DNA of 44,970 nucleotides, taken from the sequence record NC_047807.1. One strand, 5' to 3'. This document shows, piece after piece, positions 2,676-11,291 of this stretch (the stretch's first letter is position 1; every line of letters begins with the position of its first letter). Under the pieces are notes generated by a model. That model was not told the origin of the DNA and did no database searches. It saw nothing but the letters and a program-made list of their open reading frames with translations. The position numbers and the translations under genes are program-made. Source of the stretch: Escherichia phage vB_EcoP_C.

Positions 2676-3010
2676 TCACTAAGGTCTGGCACTAAGACTA
2701 ACTAAGGTACACTACTAAGTTGATACTAAGCTAAGCACTAAGGCTTTAACTAAGGCAGCCCACTAAGGCTAACCTAAGCCATCCATCAAGGAACAACCTA
2801 AGGTACACGTGAGCGAGTGAACGGAGCGCAAGCGGAGTGAACGAAACGAACAGATAGCCCACACCCTCACACCTTGTCAAACACTCAGGAATTGCCCTAA
2901 AACGGCCTGTGTAAGCCCTAAGCGGTTGCACTAAGGCAATCACCTTGTCCAACACTAAGGCGTGCCCTAGCGCTTCCTAGGCGTTCTACTTGTGCAGCCA
3001 CTAAGAGCAG
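2676..3010. repeat. Array of 12 or more dispersed copies of heptamer CACTAAG(G) in non-coding genome-end region
   Basis: Visible repeats of CACTAAG/ACTAAGG at irregular spacing; by analogy with T7-like short repeats near genome ends. Confidence 0.6.
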
Positions 3011-3204
3011 ACCTCGGCAAACCTCAGCCAACCCGTCGAGCTTCCTGCTGCCGCAGGTTGAAGACGGCCCAGCCTAGCCCAATTCCCAAGCCAACCGCAG
3101 CGCGGCCCCATATGGGGGAAATCCGGCGAGGGCGAGGGCGAGAGAGCTGACACACGCCTACATCAAAATTTTTTTGACTTTGGTTACTTTGTGACCACCT
3201 TTGG

Positions 3205-3360
3205 TTACACTAAGTCGAAACCTTGTGGCTTCTTCATGTAGCACTGGATAGTTCCACCAAGTACCTTCTGGCTGGCTAAGGCCGACTCCTCGGACTCATG
3301 AATCTTCCTGAGTACATTCTTCTGGAATGGACCTACACCATACGTATGAATCCAAATCAT
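3205..3360 (-). CDS. Small hypothetical protein (about 51 aa)
   Basis: Internal ATG of ORF-track frame with strong AAGGAGGT SD; lies in otherwise non-coding region. Confidence 0.3.
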   Translation of the reverse strand: MIWIHTYGVGPFQKNVLRKIHESEESALASQKVLGGTIQCYMKKPQGFDLV

Positions 3361-5993: not shown

Positions 5994-6060
5994 GTAACCT
6001 CCTTTTCTGAAAGGCTACCATCATGATAACCTTTAAGAAAAGTTGCGCGAAAAGCAGTGC

Positions 6061-6396
6061 TTACGCACTGACAATGTGTTTACCTAGAATGTAAACATCT
6101 ACATCTATGTCTATTTCAACTTGTGCTGTATGGAATACATGTACTTCTAATCTAGTATCTGACACTTTAGTAATCCAAGCTGTACAAAGTGTAGGTGTAC
6201 TTAATGATACAAGTGATGCCCACGAAGAATCTAAATCTCCTGTTGCAGGTACTTCTATCTCAATTTTAGTATCTTCACTTGGGACTACACCTTCAAATGT
6301 AACACGCCTTTTAGATAGTAAATTATCCAATAATGTAGCTAGTACAGTATCTCTATGTAGTAAGCCAGTTGTCTTGGGTTTAGTTAACTTAGCCAT
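6061..6396 (-). CDS. Short tailspike-module protein (111 aa), possible vestigial second tailspike or adaptor
   Basis: ORF-track frame with start moved to ATG at 6396 (AGGAG SD); sits directly downstream of promoter 6475-6497 and upstream of endosialidase. Confidence 0.55.
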   Translation of the reverse strand: MAKLTKPKTTGLLHRDTVLATLLDNLLSKRRVTFEGVVPSEDTKIEIEVPATGDLDSSWASLVSLSTPTLCTAWITKVSDTRLEVHVFHTAQVEIDIDVDVYILGKHIVSA

Positions 6397-6474
6397 ATAC
6401 TCTCCTATTACTTCCCAACCCTCCCTATGAAGATTGGCTAGTAATAGGCCGCTCAAAAGAACGGCACTATCTTA

Positions 6475-6497
6475 TCTCTTCTATAGTGTCAGTAAAT
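6475..6497 (-). promoter_or_regulatory. SP6-type phage RNAP promoter (ATTTACTGACACTATAGAAGAGA)
   Basis: Member of 11-copy promoter family; intergenic between lysis genes and tailspike module. Confidence 0.7.
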
Positions 6498-6526
6498 CGT
6501 AAGACACTGATACATAAAACTATGTA

Positions 6527-6724
6527 TTAATTATACCCGTGTTCTAGCGAGAGAATGTACATACCTAATTTTGTAGCGTCAGGTTTACTGAAGCAGACTT
6601 TATCGTCCACCTCGTAGACTGCCGTAAGCGTCGGCTTCAGAGGCTTCACCTTTGGATTCTCTGGTAACGCCGTCTGACACCCTGAAGTGATCAGCGAACC
6701 AATCAGCAGGATTGTCGCTAGCAT
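6527..6724 (-). CDS. Putative o-spanin (Rz1-like outer-membrane lipoprotein), about 65 aa
   Basis: Internal ATG with GAGG SD; lipoprotein signal MLATILLIGSLITSGC then Pro-rich segment; overlaps the neighbouring membrane-protein frame. Confidence 0.55.
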   Translation of the reverse strand: MLATILLIGSLITSGCQTALPENPKVKPLKPTLTAVYEVDDKVCFSKPDATKLGMYILSLEHGYN

Positions 6725-6821
6725 GATTCGCCTCACTTTGTGCCTCCTTCTCTTCCTTCTTCTTCTTAGCGGCAAGCAGCAGGCCAATAAGACCTGCTAC
6801 CACCTCTAGCACCTTATTCAC
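6600..6821 (-). CDS. Putative i-spanin-like membrane protein (start uncertain, track start is GTG)
   Basis: N-terminal TM segment followed by charged KKKKEEKE region; o-spanin candidate overlaps out of frame. Confidence 0.4.
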   Translation of the reverse strand: MNKVLEVVAGLIGLLLAAKKKKEEKEAQSEANHASDNPADWFADHFRVSDGVTRESKGEASEADAYGSLRGGR

Positions 6822-6963
6822 AGGTGATTACTTGGCATACCACGTCAGTGACGGAACCTTCAGTACCTTCACCTAGGTCTACGCCAAGACCTACAGAAAC
6901 AAGAGCAATCACCAGTGCAACCAGTGCACCTACCACTTTCTTAGACTTAAACAGCTTTTTCAT
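6814..6963 (-). CDS. Small membrane protein (49 aa)
   Basis: Hand translation MKKLFKSKKVVGALVALVIALVSVGLGV...; single hydrophobic helix; in lysis cluster. Confidence 0.4.
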   Translation of the reverse strand: MKKLFKSKKVVGALVALVIALVSVGLGVDLGEGTEGSVTDVVCQVITCE

Positions 6964-7071
6964 TACATCTCCCTTTCCATTGAGCTAATAAGTCCGAGTA
7001 GTTCTTCCAGTCATCATAGTTGCCATCCTCGGCAGCTTGAGCAACCATGCGCTCGCACCATTCAATACATC

Positions 7072-7416
7072 TTACCATCGTGCACATCCCTCTCTTACAT
7101 CAATGTGGGTGAAATTAGGATAAGACCCAATGCCATATTTATTGGGGTAGCGTGCTGTTAGATAGGACCATACACGGTAAGGTGTAATACCTTGTACCTT
7201 AATGTCAGCAGCCTTACCAGTAAGATGCATGGAGTTCTTAGCACCTCCCACATTAGCATTGTGCTTAGCACAGCGGTGTCCAGAAGTAATAACTACAGGA
7301 GCACCAAAGTGCTCACGTACATCTGTGACTACCTGTAGTAACTCAGCATCTACTGTGGATGTACCGCACCCACAACGGCAAGCGAACTCACGGCGCTTGA
7401 AGTGTTTGTTAAGCAT
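7072..7416 (-). CDS. Endolysin, peptidase M15-like zinc peptidoglycan peptidase (about 114 aa)
   Basis: Motif SGHRCxxHNxxxGGxxxSxHxxGxAxDI typical of the M15/VanY-like fold; start moved to ATG at 7416 with GAGG SD. Confidence 0.7.
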   Translation of the reverse strand: MLNKHFKRREFACRCGCGTSTVDAELLQVVTDVREHFGAPVVITSGHRCAKHNANVGGAKNSMHLTGKAADIKVQGITPYRVWSYLTARYPNKYGIGSYPNFTHIDVREGCARW

Positions 7417-7436
7417 TATTGACCTCGTCTTTACAA

Positions 7437-7724
7437 TTAAGCCGCAGGTGTTACAGGGTCCGACTCCATAGTAGTTGCATCCCACTTGTCGGTGGGTTCA
7501 CTCCCACGTGCAATAGCGATGTACAAGGATTGGTTTGTTTTCTCTACAGCAACCATGGCGCCTTTCTGTTTACCAGAGAGGTGTTTAATGTTGATAGGAT
7601 GATCTTTCTTCTTAAGGTCTGCTTCAGCAACAATAGGCAAAGGGATTGCCGTTGCAGTGGTTTGTCCAGTTTTTACTCGAAAAGCCTGACCAGTAACAGT
7701 ACCTGCGGTTCCATATTTAGACAT
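7437..7724 (-). CDS. Hypothetical protein, paralogue B of tandem pair (95 aa)
   Basis: AGGAG SD; shares ...SGKQKGAMV...IAIA...W.A block with the adjacent gene. Confidence 0.6.
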   Translation of the reverse strand: MSKYGTAGTVTGQAFRVKTGQTTATAIPLPIVAEADLKKKDHPINIKHLSGKQKGAMVAVEKTNQSLYIAIARGSEPTDKWDATTMESDPVTPAA

Positions 7725-7736
7725 GTAACTCTCCTC

Positions 7737-8015
7737 TTAAGCTGGGTAAATAGTAGTGACCGCTTTATTAGCTGTCAACCAATTGGAATCTTCTTTGCCA
7801 TCAACTGCGATAGCAATAACCAGGTTATCATGTGTATCAAGACACACCATGGCCCCTTTCTGCTTACCTGATTTGGTGGCATCATTAATAACATCACCTT
7901 TCTTCTCAACAGTGTCCTCGTAAACTACAGGAAGCATCAGGGCTTCACTCACAGGTTGTATCTGCTTACGAGCAGACTTACCTGTAAGGGGTTGTGTACT
8001 ATAACTATTAGACAT
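7737..8015 (-). CDS. Hypothetical protein, paralogue A of tandem pair (about 92 aa)
   Basis: Start moved to ATG at 8015 with AGGAGAG SD; shares SGKQKGAMV...IAIA block with downstream gene. Confidence 0.6.
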   Translation of the reverse strand: MSNSYSTQPLTGKSARKQIQPVSEALMLPVVYEDTVEKKGDVINDATKSGKQKGAMVCLDTHDNLVIAIAVDGKEDSNWLTANKAVTTIYPA

Positions 8016-8147: not shown

Positions 8148-8172
8148 TTCCTTCTATAGTGTCCGGTAATTA
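8148..8172 (-). promoter_or_regulatory. SP6-type phage RNAP promoter variant (AATTACCGGACACTATAGAAGGAAGG)
   Basis: Promoter family member overlapping the terminase stop codon; drives the paralogue pair and lysis genes. Confidence 0.6.
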
Positions 8173-8901
8173 ATAAGTCCTTGAAATCCTTGCAGAAAGT
8201 GTATTTCTGCTTGCCGATTTACTCCTGTAATTCTGACCGTATACTCTTTGCTGCATAGCCACGGAAGTGTTGGTTACTCTTCGCTCAGTGCCATAATCTC
8301 CATAGAGCATTGCCCTACGGAGGTGAGGTGTGTTCATAGCTTGGATATAATCGCGCATCTCCTGCGCTCTGAGGCGATTAATCCGTGTAACCTCGTCATA
8401 GTCTATCTGAGAAGTTAATTGCCGTATAGCGCCATACAGCGCGTCTAAGCGGTCATCGTGCCGGAGGCTGTTCTTCTCAATCGTGATGTTCGACATTTGA
8501 TTGAAAAGGCTGTATGACATGCGTAGTTCAAGCGGATAGTGCTGTACCGACTCAAAATCAGACTTGACCATCTCTGCGTTGAAGATGAGCCTGTGGGCCG
8601 CCATTAGTGGCTCTAGTGTTTCAATGATACGCAACTCTTTCTGTCCGGTGGCGTAATCTTCCTCCAGAGTCACAGGCCACTCTCGTTCAAAGTATGGCTT
8701 TATAACGGCCTCAAACGCGCCATGACCAAAGTTCTTTTCAATGAATACCTCTTTAACACCTGCCTGCTTTGCGGCCTGCACAATGCGATTCAGGGACGAT
8801 TCGCGGTATCCTCCCGGCACACCAAAGCACTGATACACATAAATGAATGTGCCGTGCAGGAAGACGATAGCCACACCCGTTTCATCCCCATTCTTACCTC
8901 C
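8170..8901 (-). CDS. Terminase large subunit, exon 2 (nuclease domain; GGKNGDETGVAIV onward)
   Basis: ORF-track frame 8170-8952 carries the terminase nuclease motif; sequence upstream of 8901 is intron-derived. Confidence 0.8.
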   Translation of the reverse strand, partial: GGKNGDETGVAIVFLHGTFIYVYQCFGVPGGYRESSLNRIVQAAKQAGVKEVFIEKNFGHGAFEAVIKPYFEREWPVTLEEDYATGQKELRIIETLEPLMAAHRLIFNAEMVKSDFESVQHYPLELRMSYSLFNQMSNITIEKNSLRHDDRLDALYGAIRQLTSQIDYDEVTRINRLRAQEMRDYIQAMNTPHLRRAMLYGDYGTERRVTNTSVAMQQRVYGQNYRSKSASRNTLSARISRTY

Positions 8902-9427
8902 CGGTTTGAACGTGACGTGCGAGCCAACCCTTGTGGTGTTTACGTAAACCATGTGCCACCTTACGCATATTCTGAGGTGTTAGGTTGTGCTCTTTACAGA
9001 AGTCAGTAATGCAAGTTACAAGAAACTCTTCACCATCTGGAGAAGTGAATATGTAATCTTTGCCAGTACCTTTGTTGTAAGGTGTCATGCCTTTCTTGAA
9101 CTCAGTGGCAACAGACAAGTGCTGTCCTTTCTTGATTTCAGTGGCAATACTTATGCGTTCACCTTTCTCGATGTTACCTGCTTTGCGATAACCACCTTTA
9201 CCCTTATTCCAACCCATGTTGTCATGTGGGCGTAGCTTCTCTTCTAGTGCATAACACTCTTCTTTGCTACCAGTGAATAAGATAACGTACTCGCGGCCAT
9301 CACAAAGACGGCCTGCACACTTGTGCTCTCTCATACGCTTCTTAATATCGGAGGTTACACCAATATAACCTTGCATTACATCAGTTTCACCAACAACACG
9401 AATATGATAAACTTTATGCTCTGTCAT
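8894..9427 (-). CDS. GIY-YIG homing endonuclease (intron-encoded), 177 aa
   Basis: GIY-YIG-like motif (VYHI...11 aa...YIGVT), conserved R/E/N positions, C-terminal NUMOD-like repeats; own GGGAG SD; lies inside the terminase intervening sequence. Confidence 0.8.
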   Translation of the reverse strand: MTEHKVYHIRVVGETDVMQGYIGVTSDIKKRMREHKCAGRLCDGREYVILFTGSKEECYALEEKLRPHDNMGWNKGKGGYRKAGNIEKGERISIATEIKKGQHLSVATEFKKGMTPYNKGTGKDYIFTSPDGEEFLVTCITDFCKEHNLTPQNMRKVAHGLRKHHKGWLARHVQTGR

Positions 9428-9647
9428 ATTTAACTCCCTTCAATTGTTACGTTAATTCGCTACTTTAACTTCTACTAGTCACCTAGTAGGTCGGACTATA
9501 TCTTAGGCTTGCGCCTCCCTCTGTTTCAGACCGCTTGGCCTTACAGTTAGTCTCTACACGTTCCTGTTATTGCAACAGGCTTCGCTCGGTATTGTCTCAG
9601 TGAGAGTTCCACCGAATTAAGAGGGTTTTACGCTGGCAGAGGTGTTT
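8902..9647 (-). mobile_element. Group I self-splicing intron (about 746 nt) in terminase large-subunit gene
   Basis: Splits terminase within YIDPAG|GGKNGDETG; P1 (exon GCUGGU with intron GCCAGC 9632-9637); P10 (intron CCUCU with exon-2 GGAGG); P7 core elements GACUA (9546-9557) and AAGAUAUAGUCC (9493-9504); P9-like hairpin with GUGA tetraloop. Confidence 0.75.
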
Positions 9648-10814
9648 ACCAGCGGGGTCAATGTACATAATTTTACGGGTGACAGCGCCCCATTCATACG
9701 GTCGGGCCACAGGGCGATACATAAAGTCTGTAGGCTTATTGCCATACTTCGGTGCATCGCCAATGATGTTAATAGAGTCGTTGCTCCATGTAGGCATCAC
9801 AGGGACTTCCTCTGTACCGAATGAAGTGAAGATGAGGTTGTTCAGGCGTAGCGGATAGCGGTCAGCATCCATCATGCGAGTGTTAAGCATAAACTGAAGC
9901 TGGAACTTAGCCGCACCCTGCGAGATTTCCTTCTCAATCAGCACATCATCATCATACATTTCAGGTGCACAAGGGGCACCACTATTGCCATCCAAGCCAT
10001 ACCCTGAGCGAAGTGCTGGGTTGTCCTTCATATCCTGCACAATCATAGGTGCAAGGAAGTCGCCATAGCATTGCTCCTGCTCCACTGAGGGATAACGTGC
10101 AGTCCAGATACGAACAGAGTAACCACGAGCAGGTAGGTTATTGTAGATAGAGTTTACGTTCTGAGGAGTACCAAGGTAGATAATATCACCAAACTGGTTA
10201 ATAGATTCAAACTCCTTGGTCAGTTCCTCAAGCAAGGCACGTCCTGCCGCTGTACGAGCATTCTGCATTGACTCAACGTCATCTGCTAGGATGATATCTG
10301 CACGCGCACCCTGCATACCTGCTTCGATTGAGTAACAAGACACAGAAGGCGACTTGTCACTGCCACGTAGGGTGTAATGAATCTCAAATGCCTTAACTGA
10401 GGCACGGTCCCCTGCGTAGATGTCCGGTAGCATAAACTCAAGAAAGTCTAGGCCACGGAAGATTTTAACTACCCAACCTGCGATTTCCTCTGCTCGCTTG
10501 GCGTTTTGGGATACAACCATGATACGCTTATGCGGTTCATGAATGATACGGAATACTGTATAGATTGCTGATAGTGTTGTCTTAGCGATACCACGAGGCG
10601 CTTCGATGAGGCGATACTTGTGTCCGTAGAATAGGAACTTCAAGATATCAGCCTGCATACGAATCAGATGAGGGTTGCCTGCAATTAAGTTATGAATAAC
10701 TGTGTCTGCAAAGAGAAGCAAACCTTCCGCTGTGTAAGGAAAGGTCTGCTGTAACTCCTGTAGCATCTCCCATCTGGCAAGAGCCTCCGCTTGTGATTCT
10801 CTTGCCTTAGCCAT
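9648..10814 (-). CDS. Terminase large subunit, exon 1 (ATPase domain)
   Basis: T7 gp19-like sequence; ATG at 10814 overlaps terminase-small stop (TGATG) with AAGGAGG SD; reading frame runs into intron after ...YIDPAG. Confidence 0.85.
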
Positions 10815-11113
10815 CAATCCTCCTTAGTGAATTGAATAATCTTGCCACTTGATGCCTCTCGGATAGCCTTGAGGCGCTTAGATAGCTTGGACTCCTCCTG
10901 CTGTGCAGCGGGTGTAGCGGTAATACCATTATCAAGAACCCACTTACACATAGCTCCAATGTCTTTACCAGAGACTAAATGCAGTGCTGCATCTGGGTCT
11001 TCTTCTATAGTGTCCAGTATTGCCTGTGCTTTCTTATTAAAGATTTTGGTAATAGCACCATGTAGAATGCCAACCTCGTCTTCCGTAGCTGCATGTTTAT
11101 TGTGTACGCTCAT
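10814..11113 (-). CDS. Terminase small subunit (T7 gp18-like), about 99 aa
   Basis: Position between holin and terminase large subunit; start moved to ATG at 11113 with GGAGGAGG SD. Confidence 0.65.
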   Translation of the reverse strand: MSVHNKHAATEDEVGILHGAITKIFNKKAQAILDTIEEDPDAALHLVSGKDIGAMCKWVLDNGITATPAAQQEESKLSKRLKAIREASSGKIIQFTKED

Positions 11114-11291
11114 GGCTCCTCCTCCATAGTTTAATCTTGGTATAAAACCAGTCTCCAATTTGCAACACGGTATAAATGAATGTTGCTATTAACACCCAAT
11201 TATCCCAACTGATACCGAGGAAGTACCCACCTGATACTAATGCAGGTGGCGCCAGCTTCACACCACTATCTACCAGTTCGGAGTTAATCAT
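11097..11291 (-). CDS. Holin, class II-like (two TM segments), 64 aa
   Basis: Two hydrophobic helices plus charged C-terminus; AAGGAGG SD; T7 gp17.5-like position. Confidence 0.65.
   Translation of the reverse strand: MINSELVDSGVKLAPPALVSGGYFLGISWDNWVLIATFIYTVLQIGDWFYTKIKLWRRSHERTQ

What the first reader, a model, noticed from the sequence alone, without database searches (positions are those of the whole stretch)
6527..7416. Lysis cassette (M15 endolysin, small membrane protein, overlapped spanin pair) lies apart from the holin
An M15-type peptidase endolysin, a 49-aa TM protein, and a membrane protein with an out-of-frame lipoprotein (lipobox ...LITSGC) that looks like an overlapped i-/o-spanin pair are clustered after the terminase, while the holin-like gene sits about 4 kb away next to the terminase small subunit. 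The i-spanin candidate is unusually short and starts at GTG; it and the 49-aa TM ORF are adjacent in different frames, so a frameshift or a mis-called start is possible.
Basis: partly seen in the sequence, partly recalled or inferred. Interest (0 to 1): 0.4.

Follow-up and report, generated by a model that had tools for sequence, protein, structure and literature searches.

The report
SP6-type phage lysis gene cluster
This is the usual late lysis gene cluster of a K1E/SP6-type coliphage, with no sequencing error in it, but the small protein that partners its outer-membrane lipoprotein appears to be a usually unannotated 73-residue protein with no clear membrane-spanning segment, which public annotations label inconsistently.

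Summary
A T7-type holin sits 3.7 kb away. The window is 100% identical to phage vB_EcoP_D (K1E-like). This layout is standard for SP6-like phages, so the separate holin is ordinary.

The frameshift idea is refuted. Both frames and the GTG start are kept in 26 distinct relatives, and remoter relatives use ATG.

p73 is a real gene. It shows a codon-position substitution pattern, belongs to a family of 72 clusters, and survives as a separate gene in Vibrio phage X29. Its aromatic pair (W41-F42) covaries in size with lipoprotein Gly39, ranking 1 of 880 column pairs (permutation p=0.0004).

The p73 family lacks a conserved transmembrane segment, so it fails a defining i-spanin feature. p49 has i-spanin topology but only 21 periplasmic residues, and it resembles 2-TMD holin-like proteins.

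Public annotations conflict four ways, and I found no experiments. My verdict is a spanin-like module with an atypical inner partner.

The parts
7072..7416 (-). Endolysin, 114 aa, zinc peptidase of family M15 (K1E gene 43). It has no N-terminal hydrophobic segment, so it should depend on a holin to reach the cell wall.
   Evidence: Pfam Peptidase_M15_3 at E=5.5e-33, 113.8 bits against a cutoff of 23.2. phrog_894 'endolysin' at E=3e-45. Weak match to PDB 1LBU, a Zn D-Ala-D-Ala carboxypeptidase. K1E RefSeq annotates it as 'endolysin'.
6947..7087 (-). p46, a 46-aa Cys-rich soluble ORF (CxxWC motif) of unknown function. It overlaps the endolysin stop by 16 nt and the p49 start by 17 nt.
Evidence: phrog_1312 at E=6.4e-19 with full-length coverage. 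Homologues sit at the same place in Proteus, Klebsiella, Ralstonia, Aeromonas and Edwardsiella phages.
6814..6963 (-). p49 (K1E gp44), a 49-aa type II inner-membrane protein. It has a basic N-terminus (5 Lys), a 19-residue TMD, and an acidic 21-residue periplasmic tail that ends in CxxxxC-E.
Evidence: Kyte-Doolittle 19-residue maximum of 2.76. N-flank has 5 K/R, C-flank has 0 K/R and 4 D/E. phrog_4712 labelled 'holin' at E=3e-27. hhalign against 2-TMD proteins at the same position in marine relatives gives 90.7% probability, E=1.2e-6.
6600..6821 (-). p73, a 73-aa ORF with a GTG start (homologue of SP6 gp48; not annotated in K1E RefSeq). It has an N-terminal hydrophobic/amphipathic helix, then KKKKEEKEAQSEA, then the conserved motif NPADWFADHF (W41 F42), then a variable acidic tail. 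I infer that it is the direct partner of the lipoprotein.
   Evidence: Frame open in 26 of 26 distinct sequences with an invariant TGTG start context. Column entropy in the segment coded only by p73 is 0.62 / 0.28 / 1.01 for codon positions 1 / 2 / 3. phrog_9219 at E=1.8e-35. The family has 72 clusters at 50% identity, typically 65-80 aa (49-132 overall). AF2 predicts helices at 3-31 and 38-45 with mean pLDDT 60. Covariation with the lipoprotein.
6527..6736 (-). Lipoprotein of o-spanin type (K1E gp45), a 69-aa precursor from GTG 6736 (alternative ATG at 6724). Lipobox is ITSG|C, with Gln at +2. The mature protein is 50 aa, Pro-rich at the N-terminus, with Cys29 and a conserved C-terminus DATKLGMYILSLEHGYN. 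The gene lies in the +1 frame of p73.
   Evidence: phrog_8971 'Rz-like spanin' at E=1.1e-38. Listed as an o-spanin family in Kongari 2018. tblastn finds it in 165 phage records, including Vibrio, Aeromonas, Ralstonia, Salicola and Erwinia phages. The segment coded only by the lipoprotein shows a coding pattern of 0.37 / 0.10 / 0.85.
6478..6490 (-). SP6-type phage promoter core just downstream of the lipoprotein gene. It marks the start of the next transcription unit (gene 46 and the tailspike).
   Evidence: Exact match to GACACTATAGAAG. The window has 10 such sites against 0.08 expected. A promoter is annotated at the equivalent site in records X78310 and Pm5460.
8151..8163 (-). SP6-type phage promoter core upstream of genes 41-42, the endolysin, p46, p49 and p73/lipoprotein.
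   Evidence: Exact match.
11097..11291 (-). Holin of the T7 gp17.5 family (K1E gene 38), 64 aa, directly upstream of the small terminase subunit gene.
   Evidence: Pfam Phage_holin_2_2 at E=5.5e-27, 93.7 bits against a cutoff of 25.4. phrog_920 'holin' at E=1.8e-27. It holds the same position as gene 17.5 in the T7-like phage ICP3.

Best explanation
This is the late lysis unit of an SP6/K1E-type podophage.

Transcription and translation. A phage promoter at about 8163 drives genes 41 and 42, the M15 endolysin, and four tiny genes whose stops and starts overlap (p46, p49, p73, lipoprotein). I infer that these four are translationally coupled.

Inner membrane and cell wall. The T7-type holin, encoded 3.7 kb away, permeabilises the inner membrane and lets the signal-less endolysin reach the cell wall. 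This step is inferred by homology.

Outer membrane. The lipoprotein is exported, lipidated at Cys20 and sorted to the outer membrane, because residue +2 is Gln. This is inferred from sequence rules. Its conserved C-terminal segment (LGMYIL..) is contacted by the NPxxWFxxHF motif of p73. I infer this contact from covariation.

Roles. p73, not the 49-aa protein alone, is the lipoprotein's partner. Together they disrupt the outer membrane as the last step of lysis, by analogy with Rz/Rz1.

What is atypical. p73 has no convincing transmembrane domain. Its link to the inner membrane probably comes from its amphipathic N-terminal helix, from the small membrane protein always encoded immediately upstream (p49 here), or from both. 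This last step is speculative.
For: p73 is a real gene:
- It shows a coding substitution pattern exactly in the 77 nt that K1E-type annotations treat as intergenic.
- Its start context is invariant, and distant relatives use ATG.
- The family has 72 clusters at 50% identity.
- It survives as a stand-alone 58-aa gene about 550 nt from the lipoprotein gene in Vibrio phage X29, so it does not depend on the overlap.

p73 and the lipoprotein co-occur:
- Both were present in every one of 15 further contexts I inspected: Salicola, Ralstonia, Aeromonas, Vibrio, Edwardsiella and Erwinia phages and nine metagenomic contigs. Where the two genes overlap, the lipoprotein is in the +1 frame.
- Both are absent together in Klebsiella phage K44PH129C1, which keeps p49.

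Size-compensating covariation between the p73 aromatic pair and the lipoprotein residue two positions before the Tyr of the YIL segment (LGMYIL in the window):
- The observed states are WF/WY with G in 17 lineages, WL with A in 2, YM with A, FF with G, AF with M in 2, SF with M, YA with M, and YV with V.
- Spearman rho is -0.89 over 26 lineages and -0.92 over the 9 distinct states. The exact permutation p is 0.0004.
- In an unbiased scan of 880 inter-protein column pairs, W x G has the most negative volume correlation, -0.84, rank 1.
- The two sites share no nucleotides.
- Lineages fetched after I formed the hypothesis went in the predicted direction in 3 of 4 cases, and the fourth was neutral.

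The slot upstream of p73 always holds a small membrane protein, but its family changes: p49 with 1 TMD, X proteins with 2 TMDs, or a TPTxxDD type.

The holin and endolysin assignments both score above the Pfam cutoffs.
Against: - No experiment on these genes was found.
- p73 lacks a predicted TMD or signal peptide. In the window copy the longest charge-free stretch is 12 residues and the Kyte-Doolittle maximum is 1.46. Across 66 family members the median charge-free stretch is 9 residues, and only 3 have 17 or more. How its motif would meet a periplasmic lipoprotein is therefore unexplained.
- The cluster of Lys/Arg right after the helix favours a cytoplasmic location.
- The covariation rests on about 9 distinct states in lineages that are not phylogenetically independent, and I first noticed the site pair by eye.
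- A p49-like protein is followed directly by an unrelated lipoprotein, with no p73, at the T7 18.5/18.7 position in vibriophage ICP3. This favours p49 as a minimal i-spanin.
- The combined periplasmic length is short for spanning the envelope. p73 plus lipoprotein gives at most about 105 residues. Kongari flagged the 71 residues of p49 plus lipoprotein as 'too short'.
Confidence: 0.55

Rival explanations
1. The published 'separated spanin pair'. p49 (gp44) is a minimal i-spanin, the lipoprotein (gp45) is the o-spanin, and the 77 nt between them are intergenic or encode an irrelevant ORF.
For: - p49 has the required N-in/C-out topology.
- Kongari 2018 lists K1-5/K1E/SP6 this way. CPT annotates LL11 and Premi this way.
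- A p49-like protein followed by a different lipoprotein occupies the T7 Rz/Rz1 slot in ICP3.
- The two periplasmic Cys of p49 are invariant.
Against: - The authors themselves noted 'too small?' and 'too short', with 21 + 50 periplasmic residues.
- The 'intergenic' stretch shows coding constraint in the p73 frame.
- It is p73 that covaries with the lipoprotein.
- In marine and metagenomic relatives the homologous slot holds 2-TMD proteins with both ends cytoplasmic. These cannot reach the outer membrane.
- Klebsiella phage K44PH129C1 keeps p49 without any lipoprotein.
- The same survey chose the p73 homologue as i-spanin for UAB_Phi78.
Confidence: 0.2
2. p73 is a bona fide, if short, i-spanin whose N-terminal helix spans the inner membrane (N-in, C-out). 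p49 is a holin or antiholin.
For: - The overlapped +1-frame architecture is typical of spanins. Kongari called the UAB_Phi78 homologue an overlapped i-spanin.
- In enteric phages the helix has 15 residues between K3 and K19.
- PHROG and RefSeq label p49 'holin'.
- p49 resembles 2-TMD holin-like proteins.
- Covariation with the lipoprotein.
Against: - The hydrophobic stretch is too short and carries E6 (D13 or D17 in relatives).
- In Vibrio and Edwardsiella phages and many metagenomic members it is plainly amphipathic, with a median hydrophobic moment of 0.49 at mean hydrophobicity 0.27. None of 66 members has 17 residues free of charged or strongly polar side chains.
- Four to five Lys/Arg follow the helix.
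- No family member is longer or carries a coiled-coil domain.
Confidence: 0.15
3. p73 is a cytoplasmic lysis regulator or chaperone. For example, it might bind the small membrane protein or the lipoprotein precursor. The lipoprotein would then act with p49 or alone.
For: - p73 has no export signal, has a basic cluster after the helix, and is tightly translationally coupled to the upstream membrane protein.
- Extra small lysis factors do exist, for example Lcc6 of LambdaSo.
Against: The covarying lipoprotein site lies in the mature, periplasmic C-terminus. The pairing with the lipoprotein is kept even where the upstream membrane protein belongs to a different family.
Confidence: 0.08
4. Sequencing frameshift. 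p49 and p73 are really a single gene.
For: The two ORFs are adjacent, lie in different frames and overlap by 8 nt.
Against: - The arrangement is identical in 26 distinct sequences from independent isolates and metagenomes.
- Relatives have a different frame offset and ATG starts.
- The only 'fusion' found (P0083) is a one-contig chimera of two proteins that are separate in at least 99 other contigs.
Confidence: 0.01

Closest known systems
Lambda Rz/Rz1 and T7 gp18.5/gp18.7 two-component spanins
   Same: - A small outer-membrane lipoprotein gene lies in the +1 frame of its partner's gene.
- The pair sits in a lysis cluster with an endolysin.
- The lipoprotein has one periplasmic Cys. It is Cys29 of the mature protein, the same position as in Rz1 (from memory).
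- Partner contact involves the lipoprotein C-terminus.
   Different: - There is no sequence similarity (no Pfam hit).
- The partner (p73) is 73 aa, against about 140-150 aa (from memory).
- The partner has no credible TMD and no coiled-coil domain.
- A third small membrane protein is always encoded just upstream.
K1-5/K1E/SP6 'separated spanin' family of Kongari et al. 2018 (PMC6139136)
   Same: It is the same set of genes. gp44 is p49 and gp45 is the lipoprotein.
   Different: That assignment ignores p73. The authors flagged it as doubtful and contradicted it in the same survey for UAB_Phi78. My data point to p73 as the lipoprotein's partner.
T7 gp17.5 holin (Pfam Phage_holin_2_2)
   Same: The window gene at 11097-11291 is a member, scoring above the cutoff. 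It sits before the small terminase gene, as gene 17.5 does in the T7-like phage ICP3.
   Different: Nothing notable.
Unimolecular spanin (T1 gp11)
   Same: Both are outer-membrane lipoproteins used for lysis.
   Different: From my own knowledge, u-spanins carry a C-terminal TMD. This lipoprotein ends in ...LSLEHGYN, and its longest hydrophobic run is about 8 residues.
phiKT gp28 cationic 'disruptin' (bioRxiv 10.1101/515445)
   Same: Both are small, TMD-less amphipathic proteins in a podophage lysis context that would reach the outer membrane only after the inner barriers fall.
   Different: p73 has a net charge of about -2 rather than being cationic, and it is paired with a lipoprotein.
Lcc6 of Shewanella prophage LambdaSo (bioRxiv 10.1101/2024.01.23.576932)
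   Same: It is an extra small (65 aa) membrane protein required for lysis besides the holin, endolysin and spanin. This makes it a precedent for p49/X-type accessory proteins.
   Different: No homology was tested. Lcc6 acts at the holin step and is not adjacent to a lipoprotein.

Membership tests
i-spanin (candidate: p73, 6600-6821) | N-terminal transmembrane domain with N-in/C-out topology | tested here: not met
   In the window copy the longest charge-free stretch is 12 residues, E6 lies inside the helix, the Kyte-Doolittle 19-residue maximum is 1.46, and the C-flank has 5 K/R. Across 66 family representatives the median charge-free stretch is 9, only 3 have 17 or more, none has 17 residues free of DEKRNQHP, and the median hydrophobic moment is 0.49.
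i-spanin (candidate: p73) | The o-spanin gene is embedded in, or overlaps, the +1 frame of the i-spanin gene (embedded and overlapped classes) | tested here: met
   The lipoprotein starts 85 nt into p73, in the +1 frame. The same register is seen in enteric, Vibrio, Erwinia, Ralstonia and Salicola phages and in metagenomic relatives.
i-spanin (candidate: p73) | Physical interaction with the o-spanin periplasmic domain | tested here: inconclusive
   Only indirect evidence is available: size-compensating covariation between W41/F42 and lipoprotein G39, rank 1 of 880 pairs, p=0.0004.
i-spanin (candidate: p49, 6814-6963) | N-terminal TMD with N-in/C-out topology | tested here: met
   A 19-residue TMD with Kyte-Doolittle score 2.76, 5 Lys before it, and an acidic tail after it.
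i-spanin (candidate: p49) | Periplasmic domain long enough, together with the o-spanin, to bridge the envelope | tested here: inconclusive
   The lengths are 21 + 50 residues. Kongari's notes say 'too small?' and 'too short', but their accepted range starts at 62 residues. In marine relatives the homologous proteins have 2 TMDs and only an ~11-residue loop outside.
o-spanin (lipoprotein, 6527-6736) | Signal peptide with a lipobox, and a residue other than Asp at +2 (outer-membrane sorting) | tested here: met
   The precursor reads MRRIMLATILLIGSLITSG|CQT when started from GTG 6736, which is read directly from the sequence. Across 29 distinct sequences from relatives, +2 is Q, G, A, S, V, L or M and never D.
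o-spanin | Small, Pro-rich mature periplasmic domain with Cys, encoded in a lysis cluster | tested here: met
   The mature protein is 50 aa with 5 Pro and Cys29. The gene is 336 nt (6736 to 7072) downstream of the endolysin stop. It matches phrog_8971 'Rz-like spanin' at E=1.1e-38.
o-spanin / spanin function | Required for outer-membrane disruption (spherical-cell phenotype when absent; complements lambda Rz1) | not testable with these tools
   No experimental paper was found.
Holin, T7 family (11097-11291) | Match to Pfam PF10746 above the gathering score | tested here: met
   93.7 bits against a cutoff of 25.4, E=5.5e-27.
Holin (candidate: p49, as labelled by RefSeq and PHROG) | Membership of a curated holin family, or demonstrated hole formation | tested here: inconclusive
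   There is no Pfam or NCBIfam hit. The PHROG label exists but is only a label. Profile similarity to 2-TMD X proteins is 90.7%. Those X proteins have only sub-threshold Pfam holin hits, with E-values of 0.003-0.008.
Peptidase M15 endolysin (7072-7416) | Match to Pfam PF08291 above the gathering score | tested here: met
   113.8 bits against a cutoff of 23.2.

The most novel reading that the evidence does not exclude
SP6-like and many other podophages may use a three-part outer-membrane disruption device. The component that binds the o-spanin would be p73, a family of about 70-aa proteins with no transmembrane domain. p73 would be tethered to, inserted by, or released through the small holin-like membrane protein always encoded just upstream (p49/X). 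Spanin assembly would then be gated by that protein, rather than being pre-formed across the periplasm as in lambda.
Probability: 0.3. Interest if true: 0.7.

Novelty: new variant of a known kind. Interest (0 to 1): 0.5.

Why it matters
Spanins are defined as an integral inner-membrane protein plus an outer-membrane lipoprotein. This module is found in coliphages of therapeutic interest (K1E, K1-5, SP6 relatives) and in many marine and metagenomic phages. Here the lipoprotein's evolutionary partner seems to lack a membrane anchor, and a third small membrane protein always accompanies it.

If that is confirmed, three things follow:
- The definition used to find spanins in genomes would need widening.
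- Some phages now counted as 'spanin-less' or as having a 'separated pair' would need re-annotation.
- A very small system (49 + 73 + 50 residues) would become available for studying membrane disruption or fusion.

On a practical level, public records label these genes in four incompatible ways. One of them, in the SP6 GenBank record, is a plain error.

Tried and rejected
- Frameshift or single-gene idea. Rejected on comparative grounds.
- 'Rosetta-stone' fusion P0083 (TMD fused to a p73 domain, 95 aa, TARA contig). It first looked like proof that the p73 domain is periplasmic. It is a unique chimera: its N-terminal half is 100% identical over the part it shares with the separate protein P0124 (a 2-TMD X protein), and its C-terminal half is 100% identical over the part it shares with P0122 (p73). 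It occurs on one contig, against at least 99 contigs for the split form, so I discounted it.
- Search for long, canonical i-spanin relatives of p73. I ran a profile against 1.84 billion representatives. None was found, and all hits are 49-132 aa. A PDB profile search found nothing.
- Pfam and NCBIfam scans of p46, p49, p73 and the lipoprotein gave no significant family.
- Fetching many loci with the diverse p73 alignment failed because the alignment was too divergent. Three single-protein scans of IMG/VR found nothing.
- Raw mutual information between p73 and lipoprotein columns is dominated by high-entropy columns and was not informative. Only the volume correlation was.
- AF2 of p73 alone has low confidence (mean pLDDT 60) and shows only helices.
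- The sigma-70 promoter scan found no excess over shuffles (4 sites against 4.6), and the terminator-like sites were not informative.
Full report
**Identity of the window**

The stretch 6000-7800 is 100% identical to Escherichia phages vB_EcoP_D and vB_EcoP_R, and 98.5% identical to K1E (Autographiviridae, Molineuxvirinae, Vectrevirus). All genes discussed here are on the minus strand.

K1E RefSeq annotates the homologous region as follows:
- gene 38, holin
- gene 39, small terminase
- genes 40A / 40.5 / 40B, large terminase split by a homing endonuclease
- genes 41 and 42
- gene 43, endolysin
- gene 44, 'holin'
- gene 45, 'Rz-like spanin'
- gene 46
- gene 47, the endosialidase tailspike

**Check of the observation**

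- The endolysin (7072-7416) matches Pfam Peptidase_M15_3 at E=5.5e-33.
- The 49-aa ORF (p49, 6814-6963) has an unambiguous single TMD. Five Lys precede it and an acidic tail follows it, so the predicted topology is N-in/C-out.
- The 73-aa ORF (p73, 6600-6821) starts at a GTG that overlaps the p49 stop (GTGAATAA).
- The lipoprotein frame carries ...LITSG|C. Its best start is GTG 6736, 6 nt after AAGGAGG. K1E has ATG at this position and CPT annotates the same GTG in LL11.
- The holin-like gene at 11097-11291 belongs to the T7 holin family, Pfam PF10746, E=5.5e-27.

- a conserved 46-aa ORF (6947-7087, phrog_1312);
- the two paralogous genes 41 and 42;
- two SP6-type promoter cores that bracket the unit, at 8151-8163 and 6478-6490.

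**Is the layout unusual?**

It is not. The separation of the holin from the endolysin and the spanin candidates is described as conserved among SP6-like phages (PMC4640515). The announcement for the K1-5-like phage LL11 lists 'a class-II holin, endolysin ... and a separated spanin pair' (PMC6687929). In the T7-like phage ICP3, holin 17.5 also sits before gene 18.

**Frameshift or mis-called start?**

I extracted the p49-to-lipoprotein stretch from 28 loci, which gave 26 distinct sequences. They come from Vectrevirus, Zindervirus, Acadevirus, Klebsiella phages and IMG/VR contigs.
- In all 26, p49 and p73 are separate, the p73 frame is open for 61-73 codons, and the tetranucleotide TGTG is invariant. 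TGTG is the last Cys codon of p49, always TGT and never TGC, plus a G, and it creates the GTG start.
- More distant relatives start p73 with ATG and overlap the upstream stop by 1 or 4 nt, in a different relative frame. These are Vibrio JSF38, Erwinia VL73 and Ralstonia Reminis.

This rules out a sequencing error and a conserved programmed frameshift. It points to translational coupling of separate cistrons.

**Is p73 a real gene?**

K1E-type annotations treat the 77 nt between the p49 stop and the lipoprotein start as intergenic. In that stretch the column entropy by codon position in the p73 frame is 0.62 / 0.28 / 1.01. This is the signature of purifying selection on a protein. For comparison:

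| Segment | Position 1 | Position 2 | Position 3 |
|---|---|---|---|
| p73-only (the 77 nt) | 0.62 | 0.28 | 1.01 |
| p49 | 0.46 | 0.34 | 1.17 |
| lipoprotein-only | 0.37 | 0.10 | 0.85 |

Where the p73 motif overlaps the lipoprotein signal peptide, all three positions are constrained (0.33-0.45). In the p73 tail the pattern follows the lipoprotein frame.

Further evidence that p73 is a gene:
- p73 matches phrog_9219 and is annotated as gp48 in SP6 RefSeq.
- A profile search of 1.84 billion representative proteins found 72 clusters at E<=1e-3. They are typically 65-80 aa (49-132 overall), and none resembles a long i-spanin.
- In Vibrio phage X29 a 58-aa homologue stands alone, about 550 nt from the lipoprotein gene, with an opposite-strand gene in between.

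**Anatomy of the p73 family**

The family has four parts in order:
- an N-terminal helix of about 15-20 residues;
- a Lys/Arg cluster;
- K-E-Q-x-x-A-Q-x-E-A-D ... (D/N)-P-x-x-W-F-x-x-H-F;
- a variable acidic tail.

AF2 gives helices at 3-31 and 38-45 with low confidence, mean pLDDT 60.

The N-terminal helix is not a conserved TMD.
- In the window copy the longest charge-free stretch is 12 residues.
- Across 66 representatives the median is 9, only 3 reach 17, and none has 17 residues free of charged or strongly polar side chains.
- The median hydrophobic moment is 0.49 at mean hydrophobicity 0.27, which is amphipathic.
- My controls, recalled from memory, have charge-free stretches of 23 residues (lambda Rz) and 19 residues (T7 gp18.5).

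The family therefore fails the defining i-spanin feature.

**Who is the lipoprotein's partner?**

In all 15 further contexts I inspected, p73 and a lipoprotein ending in ...L-G-x-Y-I-L-x-L-E-R-G-Y occur together. Where the two genes overlap, the lipoprotein is in the +1 frame.

The gene just upstream is always a small membrane protein, but its family changes:
- p49, with 1 TMD;
- 'X' proteins with 2 TMDs and both ends cytoplasmic (KSKTIWG...AIYGR);
- a TPTxxDD type in X29 and Salicola phage CGphi29.

Klebsiella phage K44PH129C1 keeps p46 and p49 but lacks both p73 and the lipoprotein.

I noticed that where the Trp of the p73 motif is replaced by a small residue, the Gly of LGxYI is replaced by Met. 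After forming this idea on X29 and L055, I fetched further lineages:
- three non-Trp p73 representatives;
- loci found by a DNA pattern for the Met-type lipoprotein motif.

| p73 aromatic pair | Lipoprotein residue | Lineages |
|---|---|---|
| WF or WY | G | 17 |
| WL | A | 2 |
| YM | A | 1 |
| FF | G | 1 |
| AF | M | 2 |
| SF | M | 1 |
| YA | M | 1 |
| YV | V | 1 |

Statistics for this table:
- The summed side-chain volume stays within 440-483 cubic angstroms.
- Spearman rho is -0.89 over 26 lineages, which are not independent.
- Over the 9 distinct states rho is -0.92, with an exact permutation p of 0.0004.
- In an unbiased scan of 880 inter-protein column pairs, Trp x Gly has the most negative volume correlation, -0.84, rank 1.
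- The two sites share no nucleotides, because the lipoprotein site lies beyond the p73 stop.

I take this as indirect but fairly strong evidence that the p73 motif packs against the lipoprotein C-terminus.

**What is p49?**

Evidence for that view: a p49-like protein followed by an unrelated lipoprotein occupies the T7 18.5/18.7 slot in ICP3.

Evidence against: a profile comparison links p49 to the first two-thirds of the 2-TMD X proteins, with 90.7% probability and E=1.2e-6. Transmembrane composition may inflate this score. X proteins have only sub-threshold Pfam holin hits and cannot reach the outer membrane.

I regard p49 as a small inner-membrane accessory of the p73-lipoprotein pair. It could be an anchor, an insertion aid, a gate, or a holin-like factor. 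Its exact role is open.

**A lead that failed**

A 95-aa 'TMD-p73 fusion' (P0083) seemed to show that the p73 domain is periplasmic. It is a single-contig chimera of two proteins that are separate in at least 99 contigs, so I discounted it.

**State of public knowledge**

I found four incompatible labellings:
1. K1E RefSeq: gp44 holin, gp45 Rz-like spanin, p73 not annotated.
2. Kongari 2018 for K1E, K1-5 and SP6, and CPT for LL11 and Premi: gp44 i-spanin plus gp45 o-spanin, 'separated'.
3. Kongari 2018 for UAB_Phi78: the p73 homologue as an 'overlapped' i-spanin.
4. SP6 GenBank AY288927.2: the p73 frame, which has no Cys, is labelled 'o-spanin'.

Earlier genome papers stated that no T7 gp18.5 homologue exists in SP6, K1E or K1-5 (PMC4837284). 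I found no experimental work on these genes.

**Most likely mechanism**

Shown here:
- the gene content, the overlaps and the promoter motifs;
- the family memberships of the holin and the endolysin;
- the lipobox;
- that p73 is coding;
- the covariation.

Inferred:
- Late transcription starts at the promoter near 8163, and the small genes are translated by coupling.
- The T7-type holin triggers and releases the endolysin.
- The lipoprotein is lipidated at Cys20 and sorted to the outer membrane, because +2 is Gln.
- The p73 motif binds the lipoprotein C-terminus, and the complex, with p49, disrupts the outer membrane after the wall is degraded.

The weakest step is how p73, which has no export signal, meets the lipoprotein. 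Three options remain open: an unusually weak signal-anchor, insertion with the help of p49/X, or access only after the holin has opened the inner membrane.

**Verdict**

The finding as written is an ordinary, already sequenced lysis cluster, and its frameshift concern is unfounded. The partner is atypical enough, being TMD-less and always accompanied by a third small membrane protein, to count as a new variant of the spanin theme. All of this remains computational.

Noticed in passing
window 8170-10817 (-): The large terminase gene is split into two ORFs (9597-10817 and 8170-8952) by an inserted 177-aa ORF (8894-9427). K1E annotates the same arrangement as 40A / 40.5 (homing endonuclease) / 40B. 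The close relative vB_EcoP_B has an uninterrupted terminase gene.
   Followed up: partly
window 6947-7087 (-): A conserved 46-aa Cys-rich ORF (MCTMVRCIEWCERM..., phrog_1312) is wedged between the endolysin and p49 and overlaps both. Homologues are present from Proteus to Ralstonia phages. One homologue carries a precomputed Pfam DUF8272 hit. Its function is unknown.
   Followed up: partly
window 7437-7724 and 7737-8015 (-): Two paralogous ~92-95-aa genes share the motif SGKQKGAMV and are annotated 'acetyl-CoA acetyltransferase' through phrog_2725. They have no Pfam support, so the name looks like a propagated mislabel. They precede the endolysin across the whole phage group.
   Followed up: no
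window 6545-6547 (lipoprotein codon for His47 of the mature protein): The window, like phages D and R, has ...SLEHGYN where nearly all relatives have ...LERGY. The Arg is almost invariant across the family. This is a possible functional variant of the lipoprotein C-terminus.
   Followed up: no
L057 (SP6 GenBank AY288927.2) 708-905: The CDS labelled 'o-spanin' translates to the p73 frame (VAGLLGLLLAYKKKQDQ...). It has no Cys and no lipobox. The real lipoprotein frame is not annotated in that record.
   Followed up: yes
L032 (Klebsiella phage vB_Kpl_K44PH129C1) 1281-1571: This phage keeps the p46- and p49-like genes but has only 126 nt between p49 and the tailspike gene. p73 and the lipoprotein are both missing. 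Klebsiella phage HY may be the same.
   Followed up: partly
L049 (Vibrio phage ICP3) 1465-1805: A p49-like 47-aa protein (same basic N-terminus, GVDL and CxxxxC motifs) is followed by an unrelated acidic lipoprotein. The pair sits between terminase genes 18 and 19, the slot of T7 Rz/Rz1, and no p73 is present.
   Followed up: partly
L042 (TARA scaffold) 329-616: A 95-aa ORF looks like a fusion of a membrane protein with p73. It is a unique deletion or chimera between two neighbouring genes that are separate in all related contigs.
   Followed up: yes
window 2800-3300: A local G+C peak of 0.54-0.58, against about 0.40-0.45 around it, with no long ORF. It lies downstream of the tailspike gene and may be the genome-end or terminal-repeat region of a permuted record.
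   Followed up: no
window 11002-11014 (-): An exact SP6-type promoter core lies inside the small terminase gene (10814-11158), just downstream of the holin gene.
   Followed up: no
L052 1051-1323, L055 1037-1312, L053 1049-1303: In SU10-portal-type metagenomic phages, the X-p73-lipoprotein triad is preceded by an 84-91-aa protein with one TMD and a coiled-coil-like segment. It could be another lysis component.
   Followed up: no
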